NCBI RefSeq assembly: GCF_036507355.1
Contig: NZ_AP027878.1
DNA from: Escherichia coli
GTDB taxonomy: Bacteria; Pseudomonadota; Gammaproteobacteria; Enterobacterales; Enterobacteriaceae
DNA length: 64,000 bases
Strand: one strand, 5' to 3'
Part shown: in pieces, positions 45,729 through 45,794 of the stretch
How the letters are laid out: every line of letters starts with the position of its first letter
Position numbering within the stretch: the stretch's first letter is position 1
Notes under the pieces: generated by a model
Told to the model about the DNA's origin: nothing
The model's database searches: none
Seen by the model: only the letters and a program-made list of their open reading frames with translations
Made by a program: the position numbers and the translations under genes

Positions 45729-45745
45729 ATTGCTCTAATAAAAAA
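45729..45745 (+). promoter_or_regulatory. C1-type operator (ATTGCTCTAATAAAAAA)
   Basis: 14/17 consensus match. Confidence 0.55.
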
Positions 45746-45777
45746 CGTGATGAGTGTACATCACGTTTTAAAAATAT

Positions 45778-45794
45778 GGAATTATTAGAGCAAT
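45778..45794 (-). promoter_or_regulatory. C1-type operator
   Basis: Reverse complement reads ATTGCTCTAATAATTCC; the pair brackets a hairpin at 45744-45767. Confidence 0.55.

What the first reader, a model, noticed from the sequence alone, without database searches (positions are those of the whole stretch)
45729..45794. Two opposed C1 operators bracketing a terminator hairpin
ATTGCTCTAATAAAAAA on the plus strand and ATTGCTCTAATAATTCC on the minus strand flank a 9-bp-stem hairpin (45744-45767) that reads as a terminator on the minus strand. This compact terminator-plus-operator arrangement would insulate the downstream operon while keeping it under repressor control.
Basis: seen in the sequence. 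Interest (0 to 1): 0.35.

Follow-up and report, generated by a model that had tools for sequence, protein, structure and literature searches.

The report
Known P1 repressor sites flanking terminator
This is the already-annotated control region of the phage P1/P7 pmgR-pmgS genes: two binding sites for the phage's master repressor C1 that face each other across a promoter and a small hairpin that probably stops transcription coming from the genes upstream.

Summary
The window is phage P1/P7 DNA (99.7% identical to P7). The two 17-bp sites are the C1 operators that the P1 and P7 GenBank records annotate as OpmgRa/Op86a and OpmgRb/Op86b, with a predicted sigma-70 promoter, PpmgR, between them. The core of the finding is therefore already known.

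The hairpin is not annotated, but neither record annotates any terminator in the stretches I read. Comparison with diverged relatives supports a minus-strand (sense-strand) RNA role:
- two stem pairs change compensatorily;
- in Cronobacter phage JK004 three changed stem pairs remain paired only as G.U wobbles in sense-strand RNA (-14.0 versus -5.8 kcal/mol);
- the T-tract is kept on the sense strand only;
- Op86b is the only operator with an AAAA tail, which supplies that T-tract.

It is a moderate terminator at best (core -8.5 kcal/mol, polymorphic stem).

Two small additions:
- The hairpin loop is always TAnnnT and never varies in 49 distinct P1-type sequences, so it fits a -10 element better than the annotated TAAAAC.
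- Citrobacter and Pantoea relatives have different operator sequences but keep a convergent operator pair upstream of pmgR, without the hairpin.

No transcript mapping was available. Interest is low.

The parts
45796..46497 (-). pmgQ (P7: hdmD), last gene of the upstream pmgN-pmgQ unit. Its stop codon TAA (45798-45796) lies 1 nt before Op86a.
   Evidence: ORF list; P1 and P7 annotation.
45778..45794 (-). C1 operator OpmgRa / Op86a, ATTGCTCTAATAATTCC (14 of 17 matches to the consensus ATTGCTCTAATAAATTT).
   Evidence: Annotated as a monovalent C1-controlled operator that controls pmgR and pmgS (P7). Operator positions 1-15 are invariant in 49 distinct PmgR-anchored sequences.
45765..45793 (-). 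Annotated predicted sigma-70 promoter PpmgR: -35 TTGCTC (45793-45788), 17-nt spacer, -10 TAAAAC (45770-45765).
   Evidence: P1 record, marked as predicted. Only 6 of 12 consensus matches, so not listed by the promoter scan. The -10 becomes TGAAGC in JK004 and TGAAAC or TAAAGC in some P1-type contigs.
45753..45781 (-). Alternative promoter model (my inference): -35 TTCCAT (45781-45776), 17-nt spacer, -10 equal to the hairpin loop TACACT (45758-45753). The start site would fall near 45746, at the edge of Op86b.
   Evidence: The loop is TAnnnT in every lineage: TACACT, TACGCT, TATCAT, TATTAT. 0 of 6 loop columns vary against 10 of 18 stem columns. A rough PWM scores this model above the annotated one in all five lineages.
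45742..45769 (-). Hairpin AAAACGTGATG-TACACT-CATCACGTTTT: 7-bp G+C-containing core with a 4-bp A-U extension.
   Evidence: -13.4 kcal/mol, z = -5.6; core -8.5. 2 of 11 pairs change on both sides and 6 change only through G.U, with 96.8% of cells paired.
45737..45745 (-). T-tract TTTTTTATT directly after the hairpin core. It is formed by the complement of the A-rich tail of Op86b.
   Evidence: Invariant in all lineages. Op86b is the only one of 16 operator-like sites with AAAA at positions 14-17.
45729..45745 (+). C1 operator OpmgRb / Op86b, ATTGCTCTAATAAAAAA (14 of 17 matches to consensus), convergent with Op86a.
   Evidence: Annotated in P1 and P7. 1 of 17 columns varies, while the 4 nt just outside it are hypervariable.
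45719..45724 (-). Shine-Dalgarno sequence AAGGTG of pmgR.
   Evidence: Read from the sequence. It lies 4 nt upstream of the ATG at 45714.
45496..45714 (-). pmgR (P7: shtA), 72 aa, first gene of the controlled unit.
   Evidence: [quoted passage not shown]
44232..45494 (-). pmgS (P7: shtB), second gene of the unit.
44178..44210 (-). Strong terminator-like hairpin after pmgS (TGCTGGTGGAGTGCGTCCCACCAGCA followed by TTTTTTT). It is the likely 3' end of the pmgR-pmgS unit.
   Evidence: Own scan, -16.1 kcal/mol; sequence. Not annotated in the records.

Best explanation
The segment is the known C1-repressed control region of the two-gene pmgR-pmgS unit (shtA-shtB in P7) of a P1/P7-type phage.

Shown here or by curated annotation:
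- Two monovalent C1 operators, Op86a and Op86b, lie in convergent orientation 32 bp apart (49 bp centre to centre), directly after the pmgQ stop codon and directly before the pmgR ribosome-binding site.
- Both are under strong purifying selection.

Inferred:
- The 11-bp hairpin plus TTTTTTATT between them acts on sense-strand RNA as a moderate intrinsic terminator, or 3'-end-forming element, for transcripts arriving from the upstream pmgN-pmgQ operon.
- The promoter that drives pmgR-pmgS has its -10 element inside the hairpin. The annotation puts it in the 5' arm. Conservation fits the loop (TAnnnT) better.
- RNA started at this promoter therefore lacks the 5' arm, cannot form the hairpin, and reads through to the strong terminator after pmgS.
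- In a lysogen, C1 on Op86a covers the -35 region and C1 on Op86b covers the start site or early transcribed region, so the promoter is shut from both sides. When C1 is inactivated the promoter fires.
- The A-rich tail of Op86b doubles as the terminator's T-tract.
For: Identity of the region:
- 99.7% identical to P7 and 99.2% to P1 over 1 kb.
- Coordinates coincide with the annotated OpmgRa, OpmgRb and PpmgR.
- The motif is strongly enriched in the window.
- C1 binds 22 dispersed asymmetric operators with consensus ATTGCTCTAATAAATTT (PMC8546580).

Selection on the operators:
- In 230 loci found through PmgR alone, the operators are nearly invariant while flanking bases and the pmgQ 3' end vary.

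Terminator reading:
- The hairpin and T-tract lie 28 nt after the pmgQ stop codon, on the coding strand.
- D6-like Salmonella plasmids carry ACATGGTG/CACCATGT where P1 carries ACGTGATG/CATCACGT, which is two compensatory pairs.
- JK004 and L287 carry extra changes that are G.U on the sense strand and C.A on the other. For JK004 the energies are -14.0 against -5.8 kcal/mol and z is -5.35 against -2.06.
- The plus-strand T-run is lost in JK004, while the sense-strand T-tract is invariant.
- The AAAA tail of Op86b is unique among 16 operator-like sites.
- A strong terminator after pmgS closes the unit.

Promoter inside the hairpin:
- Annotation, loop conservation and PWM comparison.

Two-operator design:
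- Citrobacter-type and Pantoea elements have different dispersed operator motifs, and Citrobacter encodes a C1 homolog at 27% identity.
- They still place a convergent operator pair with a TAnnnT-like hexamer between the sites, upstream of the pmgR homolog.
Against: - No transcript 5' or 3' end mapping, footprint or reporter data for this junction could be found. Promoter and terminator are both predictions.
- The hairpin core is weak for a terminator (7 bp, 4 G-C pairs, -8.5 kcal/mol).
- 7 of 20 distinct variants carry a pair-breaking change, and 10 of 18 stem columns are polymorphic in P1-type genomes.
- Distant relatives manage without any hairpin.
- Only three deep hairpin lineages exist, so the covariation rests on few independent events. 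Within-P1 transitions favour sense-strand pairing only about 8 to 3.
- Both promoter models score poorly against consensus (which used approximate matrices from my own knowledge).
- CRISPRi roadblock data are uninformative, because knocking down pmgR itself gave no phenotype.
Confidence: 0.6

Rival explanations
1. Operators and promoter only. The hairpin has no terminator function. It is tolerated spacer sequence, or at most a leaky pause or attenuator, and pmgR-pmgS are also reached by read-through from the upstream late promoter LPpmgL.
For: - The core is weak and the stem is polymorphic, with pair-breaking variants.
- The hairpin is absent in Citrobacter and Pantoea relatives.
- The built-in scan did not call it.
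- An essential morphogenesis gene with no late promoter of its own might depend on read-through.
Against: - Two compensatory pair changes and sense-only wobbles across deep lineages.
- An invariant T-tract formed by an atypical operator tail.
- Roadblocks placed in pmgO, pmgP, ppp and pmgQ did not reduce plating. This is weak evidence, because the pmgR knockdown did not either.
Confidence: 0.25
2. RNA processing or stability element. In read-through RNA the two operators pair with each other (13-15 bp) and stack on the inner 11-bp hairpin. This would make a long interrupted duplex that RNase III cuts or that protects the pmgQ mRNA 3' end, separating the upstream and downstream messages.
For: - The composite fold is -29.8 kcal/mol, z = -9.5.
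- Distant relatives also form 12-16 bp operator-operator stems.
- Sense-strand specificity fits any RNA-level role.
Against: - The outer stem is explained by C1 binding alone, and being invariant it gives no covariation signal.
- A 12-nt one-sided bulge interrupts the duplex.
- No Rfam family matches.
- A T-tract is not needed for processing, yet it is conserved.
Confidence: 0.07
3. DNA-level site. The palindrome ACGTGATG...CATCACGT binds a dimeric protein (phage or host), or extrudes as a cruciform, to modulate PpmgR or C1 binding.
For: - It is a perfect inverted repeat with a 6-bp centre, located inside a regulatory region.
Against: - The palindrome occurs once in 64 kb and does not resemble the Lpa -22 boxes.
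- In JK004 and L287 the two half-sites differ in exactly the way that keeps RNA pairing on one strand.
- The half-site sequence changes between lineages.
Confidence: 0.05

Closest known systems
P1 OpmgRa/OpmgRb (former Op86a/Op86b) with PpmgR, and P7 Op(sht[a])/Op(sht[b])
   Same: This is the same locus. Positions, strands and sequences match the features in AF234172 and AF503408.
   Different: Nothing differs in the operators. The records do not mark the hairpin as a terminator. They place the -10 in the 5' arm (TAAAAC), whereas conservation favours the loop.
Other monovalent C1 operator-promoter units of P1, for example Olpa/Plpa (Op94) and OpmgT (Op88)
   Same: The same 17-bp asymmetric operator overlaps a sigma-70 promoter directly after the stop codon of the previous gene. 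At Plpa the -35 begins at operator position 15, which is close to the loop-model geometry here.
   Different: Those units have one operator. This one has a second, inverted operator downstream and a hairpin with T-tract between the two.
Bivalent C1 operators of P1 (Oc1ab/Op99ab; the overlapping pair at window 59253-59280)
   Same: Two C1 sites in inverted orientation at one promoter.
   Different: Bivalent sites overlap and form one imperfect palindrome. Here the sites are 32 bp apart, and the record calls each monovalent.
Auxiliary downstream operators in classical repressor systems such as lac O1/O2 (comparison from my own knowledge)
   Same: A second repressor site in the early transcribed region reinforces a promoter-proximal site.
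   Different: C1 binds asymmetric sites. Centre-to-centre spacing is 49, 27 and 33 bp in the three lineages (2.6 to 4.7 helical turns), so no fixed helical phase is kept. This argues against a strictly phased loop.
Canonical Rho-independent terminators
   Same: A stem-loop followed by a U-tract just after a stop codon. An A-tract upstream gives a partly bidirectional appearance.
   Different: The stem is weaker than usual. The U-tract is shared with a repressor site, and a promoter element lies inside the hairpin.

Membership tests
P1/P7 C1-controlled operator | Match to the asymmetric 17-bp consensus ATTGCTCTAATAAATTT | tested here: met
   Both sites match positions 1-13 exactly and 14 of 17 overall. 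The consensus is as quoted in PMC8546580.
P1/P7 C1-controlled operator | Lies in a genome that encodes C1 and carries many dispersed copies of the motif | tested here: met
   A 283-aa ORF at 33864-34715 sits at the exact position of c1. The motif has 16 copies against 1.84 expected.
P1/P7 C1-controlled operator | Positional identity with curated operators | tested here: met
   OpmgRa/OpmgRb in AF234172 and Op(sht[a])/Op(sht[b]) in AF503408.
P1/P7 C1-controlled operator | Sequence constraint stronger than in the flanks | tested here: met
   2 of 17 and 1 of 17 columns vary, against 22 of 60 in the pmgQ 3' end and 6 of 14 after Op86b.
P1/P7 C1-controlled operator | Bound by C1 protein (footprint or gel shift) | not testable with these tools
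   The old Op86 names imply earlier mapping, but the primary papers are not in the library.
Bivalent C1 operator | Two 17-bp sites that overlap to form one imperfect palindrome | tested here: not met
   The sites are separated by 32 bp, and the record labels both monovalent.
Intrinsic (Rho-independent) terminator | Stable G+C-containing stem-loop | tested here: met
   7-bp core with 4 G-C pairs, -8.5 kcal/mol. 11 bp and -13.4 kcal/mol with the A-U extension, z = -5.6. The strength is moderate.
Intrinsic (Rho-independent) terminator | U-rich tract immediately 3' of the stem on the transcribed strand | tested here: met
   TTTTTTATT on the - strand. The + strand has only TTTT followed by A's, and that run is lost in JK004.
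Intrinsic (Rho-independent) terminator | Located after the end of a gene on the same strand | tested here: met
   The hairpin starts 28 nt after the pmgQ stop codon.
Intrinsic (Rho-independent) terminator | Structure kept in relatives through compensatory change | tested here: met
   2 pairs change on both sides and 6 change through G.U only. JK004 folds on the sense strand only. The signal rests on only three deep lineages.
Intrinsic (Rho-independent) terminator | RNA 3' ends form there in vivo or in vitro | not testable with these tools
   No Term-seq or equivalent data for P1 were found.
Sigma-70 promoter (PpmgR) | -35 and -10 hexamers at 16-18 nt spacing | tested here: inconclusive
   The annotated TTGCTC-17-TAAAAC matches 6 of 12 and was not listed by the scan. 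The loop model TTCCAT-17-TACACT scores slightly higher. Both are weak.
Sigma-70 promoter (PpmgR) | Key -10 bases (A at position 2, T at position 6) conserved in relatives | tested here: inconclusive
   The annotated -10 has no T at position 6 and loses the A at position 2 in JK004 and the L036 type. The loop hexamer keeps T1, A2 and T6 in all lineages.
Sigma-70 promoter (PpmgR) | Mapped transcription start | not testable with these tools
   No data were found.

The most novel reading that the evidence does not exclude
The junction is a self-insulating module in which a promoter is nested inside an intrinsic terminator. The -10 hexamer would be the terminator's loop, so incoming transcripts end there while transcripts born there escape. 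The terminator's U-tract would double as the tail of a second repressor site, giving a promoter clamped by two convergent C1 sites. That clamp is conserved upstream of pmgR across at least three operator specificities in the wider P1 group.
Probability: 0.3. Interest if true: 0.4.

Novelty: already known. Interest (0 to 1): 0.15.

Why it matters
It matters little for discovery. The operators and the promoter were catalogued in the P1 genome annotation, and P1 regulation by C1 is textbook.

The modest value is practical. P1 is a workhorse phage whose transcripts have never been mapped (PMC10695390 notes this limits CRISPRi interpretation), and pmgR is an essential assembly gene. Three points would refine the operon map and help people who engineer P1:
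- a probable terminator separates pmgQ from pmgR;
- the annotated -10 may be misplaced;
- the pmgR-pmgS unit is bracketed by terminators.

The compact overlap of operator, terminator and promoter is also a neat natural design for insulated, repressible expression units.

Tried and rejected
- P1 genome paper (PMC523184): not held, so I could not check whether it lists a terminator here.
- Full-text search for 'Op86': returned only accession-number noise.
- P1 GenBank record: I read about 22 kb of it and found no terminator features at all, even at textbook hairpins. The missing annotation is therefore uninformative.
- Rfam, E-value mode: no match on either strand.
- Built-in terminator and promoter scan: missed both elements. 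I replaced it with my own scan and PWM.
- Late-promoter (Lpa) box hypothesis for the palindrome: rejected. The -22 boxes look different and the palindrome is unique in the window.
- Operator-anchored scan of 100,044 species genomes: 81 hits, nearly all chance matches in AT-rich genomes, two true Escherichia hits and no new lineage.
- Plasmid collection: the 60-80% identity class proved to be one D6-like Salmonella lineage.
- Xenorhabdus relative seen: could not be recovered.
- CRISPRi polarity data: examined as a test of transcriptional independence and rejected as uninformative.
- P1vir RNA-seq paper: does not mention these genes.
- First variant census: biased, because the search pattern and my regex required intact operators. 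I redid it with PmgR-anchored loci only.

Full report
**1.

ATTGCTCTAATAAAAAA lies on the plus strand at 45729-45745. ATTGCTCTAATAATTCC lies on the minus strand at 45794-45778. Between them is a 9-bp stem with a 6-nt loop at 45744-45767, which extends to 11 bp (45742-45769).

The 13-mer ATTGCTCTAATAA, allowing 2 mismatches, occurs 16 times in the window against 1.84 expected, and no shuffle reached 16. The inner hairpin folds at -13.4 kcal/mol, z = -5.6.

**2. Identity**

A 1-kb query around the site is 99.7% identical to phage P7 and 99.2% to phage P1. All genes here are on the minus strand: ppp, pmgQ/hdmD, then pmgR/shtA, pmgS/shtB and pap.

The P1 record AF234172 annotates the two sites as the monovalent C1-controlled operators OpmgRa (former Op86a, which "controls expression of pmgR and pmgS") and OpmgRb (former Op86b). 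It also annotates a predicted sigma-70 promoter, PpmgR, with -35 TTGCTC inside OpmgRa and -10 TAAAAC. P7 annotates the same two operators.

C1 is the master repressor of P1. It binds 22 dispersed asymmetric operators with consensus ATTGCTCTAATAAATTT (PMC8546580). The main content of the finding is therefore already known.

**3. The hairpin**

Neither record marks the hairpin. The P1 record carries no terminator features in the roughly 22 kb I read, even at textbook hairpins, so this absence says nothing. The P1 genome paper itself is not in the library.

On the sense (minus) strand the order is:
- pmgQ stop codon, then 1 nt;
- Op86a;
- a 12-nt spacer;
- AAAACGTGATG-TACACT-CATCACGTTTT;
- TTTTTTATT, which runs into Op86b;
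- the Shine-Dalgarno sequence AAGGTG;
- the pmgR ATG.

The built-in scan missed the hairpin, probably because extending the stem through A-T pairs uses up the T-tract. A scan that ends the stem at the T-tract finds it on the minus strand only, with a core of -8.5 kcal/mol, mid-ranked among 51 candidates in the window.

**4. Comparative evidence for a sense-strand RNA role**

Diverged relatives keep both operators and the hairpin, but with a different stem.
- D6-like Salmonella plasmids and contig L080 have ACATGGTG/CACCATGT where P1 has ACGTGATG/CATCACGT. That is two fully compensatory pair changes.
- Cronobacter phage JK004 and contig L287 carry further changes that are G.U wobbles on the sense strand and C.A mismatches on the other strand.
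- JK004 folds at -14.0 kcal/mol (z = -5.35) as sense RNA, but only -5.8 kcal/mol (z = -2.06) as antisense.

On an alignment of 20 distinct variants, 2 of the 11 inner pairs change on both sides, 6 change only through G.U, and 96.8% of cells stay paired. The outer operator-operator helix is invariant and so is uninformative.

The sense-strand T-tract is invariant, while the plus-strand T-run is lost in JK004. Op86b is the only one of 16 operator-like sites whose positions 14-17 read AAAA rather than a T-rich tail, and that tail is exactly what supplies the T-tract.

There are caveats:
- Only three deep lineages exist.
- The stem is polymorphic within P1-type genomes. 10 of 18 stem columns vary, and 7 of 20 variants break a pair.
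- Within-P1 transitions favour sense-strand pairing only about 8 to 3.

**5. Selection on the operators**

My first census was biased, because both the search pattern and my regex required intact operators. I repeated it on 230 loci found only through the PmgR protein, which gave 49 distinct sequences.

| Region | Variable columns |
|---|---|
| pmgQ 3' end | 22 of 60 |
| Op86a | 2 of 17 (operator positions 16-17 only) |
| Hairpin 5' arm | 5 of 11 |
| Hairpin loop | 0 of 6 |
| Hairpin 3' arm core | 5 of 7 |
| Op86b | 1 of 17 |
| 14 nt between Op86b and the pmgR ATG | 6 of 14 |

The 4 bases immediately after Op86b are hypervariable. Both operators are therefore under strong constraint.

**6. Where the promoter is**

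The annotated -10 (TAAAAC) lacks the highly conserved final T. It becomes TGAAGC in JK004, and TGAAAC or TAAAGC in several P1-type contigs. These changes preserve RNA pairing but hit the key A of a -10 element.

By contrast, the hairpin loop reads TACACT, TACGCT, TATCAT or TATTAT. T1, A2 and T6 are invariant and only the middle three bases vary. No loop column varies in the unbiased census, against 10 of 18 stem columns (hypergeometric p about 0.02).

A rough sigma-70 matrix, with frequencies taken from my own knowledge and so indicative only, ranks the loop model (-35 TTCCAT at 45781-45776, 17-nt spacer, loop as -10) above the annotated model in all five lineages:

| Lineage | Loop model (bits) | Annotated model (bits) |
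|---|---|---|
| P1/P7 | 6.0 | 4.7 |
| D6-like | 6.1 | 4.7 |
| L080 | 6.6 | 4.7 |
| JK004 | 5.4 | -1.8 |
| L287 | 5.4 | 3.0 |

In JK004 and L287 a 16-nt-spacer variant of the loop model scores higher still (8.3 and 6.1 bits).

Both models are weak promoters. Under either, the transcript begins inside or after the hairpin, lacks the 5' arm and cannot terminate there. That is what allows a terminator and a promoter to share 30 bp. This step is inference, because no 5' or 3' end mapping for P1 was found.

**7. The two-operator design is older than the hairpin**

Distant PmgR homologs (30-45% identity) occur in Citrobacter-type and Pantoea phage-plasmids.

Each element has its own dispersed operator-like motif, and the P1 motif is absent:
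- Citrobacter: CAGA-NN-ATACTAATT, 21 sites at up to 2 mismatches against a mean of 8 in shuffles.
- Pantoea: ACA-N-AAGATACTAAAA, 10 sites at up to 1 mismatch against a mean of 0.2 in shuffles.

The Citrobacter element encodes a C1 homolog at 27% identity, E = 2e-29.

In both elements the only close convergent pair of these motifs lies directly upstream of the pmgR homolog. The cores are 16-20 nt apart, with a TAnnnT-like hexamer (TATCAT, TATTGT, GATATT) between them, and there is no G+C hairpin or T-tract.

The convergent operator clamp on the pmgR promoter is therefore conserved across three operator specificities. The hairpin with T-tract is an addition specific to the P1/P7, D6-like and JK004 clade, where the pmgQ stop codon abuts the first operator. 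Centre-to-centre spacings of 49, 27 and 33 bp keep no common helical phase, which argues against a strictly phased C1-C1 contact.

**8. Context**

A much stronger terminator-like hairpin (-16.1 kcal/mol, seven T's) follows pmgS at 44210-44178. pmgR-pmgS therefore looks like a two-gene unit bracketed by terminators.

[quoted passage not shown] CRISPRi roadblocks in pmgO through pmgQ did not reduce plating. That would fit an independent pmgR promoter, but the pmgR knockdown itself also gave no phenotype, so the test is uninformative (PMC10695390).

**9. Rivals**

- The hairpin may be a leaky pause or of no consequence. I put this at 0.25.
- The composite operator-plus-hairpin fold (-29.8 kcal/mol) could be an RNase III or stability element (0.07).
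- The palindrome could be a protein site or a cruciform (0.05). This is disfavoured because the palindrome is unique in the window, is unlike the Lpa boxes, and loses DNA symmetry in exactly the way that keeps RNA pairing.
- No Rfam family matches.

**10. Verdict**

On novelty, the finding is already known. The small additions are the terminator reading, a better-supported position for the -10, and the conservation of the convergent operator pair. Interest is low.

Noticed in passing
window 44178-44210 (- strand): A strong terminator-like hairpin, TGCTGGTGGAGTGCGTCCCACCAGCA followed by TTTTTTT (-16.1 kcal/mol), lies between the pmgS stop codon and the pap ribosome-binding site. It is not annotated in P1 or P7. 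pap starts about 20 nt after it with no annotated promoter, so how pap is expressed is unclear.
   Followed up: partly
window 43577-43609, next to Op88/OpmgT at 43636-43652 (- strand): An 11-14 bp G+C-rich hairpin (AAACATGCCGC-AAGGC-GCGGCATGTTT, -19.9 kcal/mol as called on the + strand) lies about 27 nt downstream of the Op88-controlled promoters, in the pmgT leader. A T-tract follows it only on the + strand. It could be a terminator for antisense transcription or a leader structure.
   Followed up: no
window 59253-59280, and 33210-33222 / 33289-33301: Other paired C1 sites are present: an overlapping inverted pair (bivalent type, at the position expected for the ban operator Op72) and a divergent pair 67 bp apart in the c1/coi/cre region (Oc1d/Oc1e in the P1 record).
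   Followed up: partly
L203+L204 (Citrobacter plasmid NZ_CP056338) and L447+L448 (Pantoea plasmid NZ_CP034366): These distant P1-like phage-plasmids have their own dispersed operator-like motifs (CAGA-NN-ATACTAATT and ACA-N-AAGATACTAAAA). Both share the CTAA core of the P1 operator. The Citrobacter element encodes a C1 homolog at 27% identity. Together they form a ready-made series for studying how repressor and operator co-evolve.
   Followed up: partly
MH160767.1 / NC_050153.1 (phage vB_EcoM-Ro157c2YLVW), region matching window 45496-45714: The public record labels the pmgR region 'L: RNA-directed RNA polymerase L', which is an obvious annotation error for a 72-aa P1 morphogenesis gene.
   Followed up: no
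window 45725-45728 (the 4 nt between Op86b and the pmgR Shine-Dalgarno sequence): These four bases are hypervariable among otherwise near-identical P1-type genomes (ATAC, CTAC, CTAT, TTAC, CCAA, CCAT, CTGC and others), in sharp contrast to the invariant operator next to them.
   Followed up: partly
PmgR protein (window 45496-45714) and homologs in L004, L005, L201, L202: PmgR is conserved down to 30-45% identity with invariant residues H9, W11, F15, G21, L60, G61 and M63. The Pantoea homolog appears to be annotated too short: a GTG start 57 nt upstream of the annotated start restores the conserved N-terminus.
   Followed up: partly
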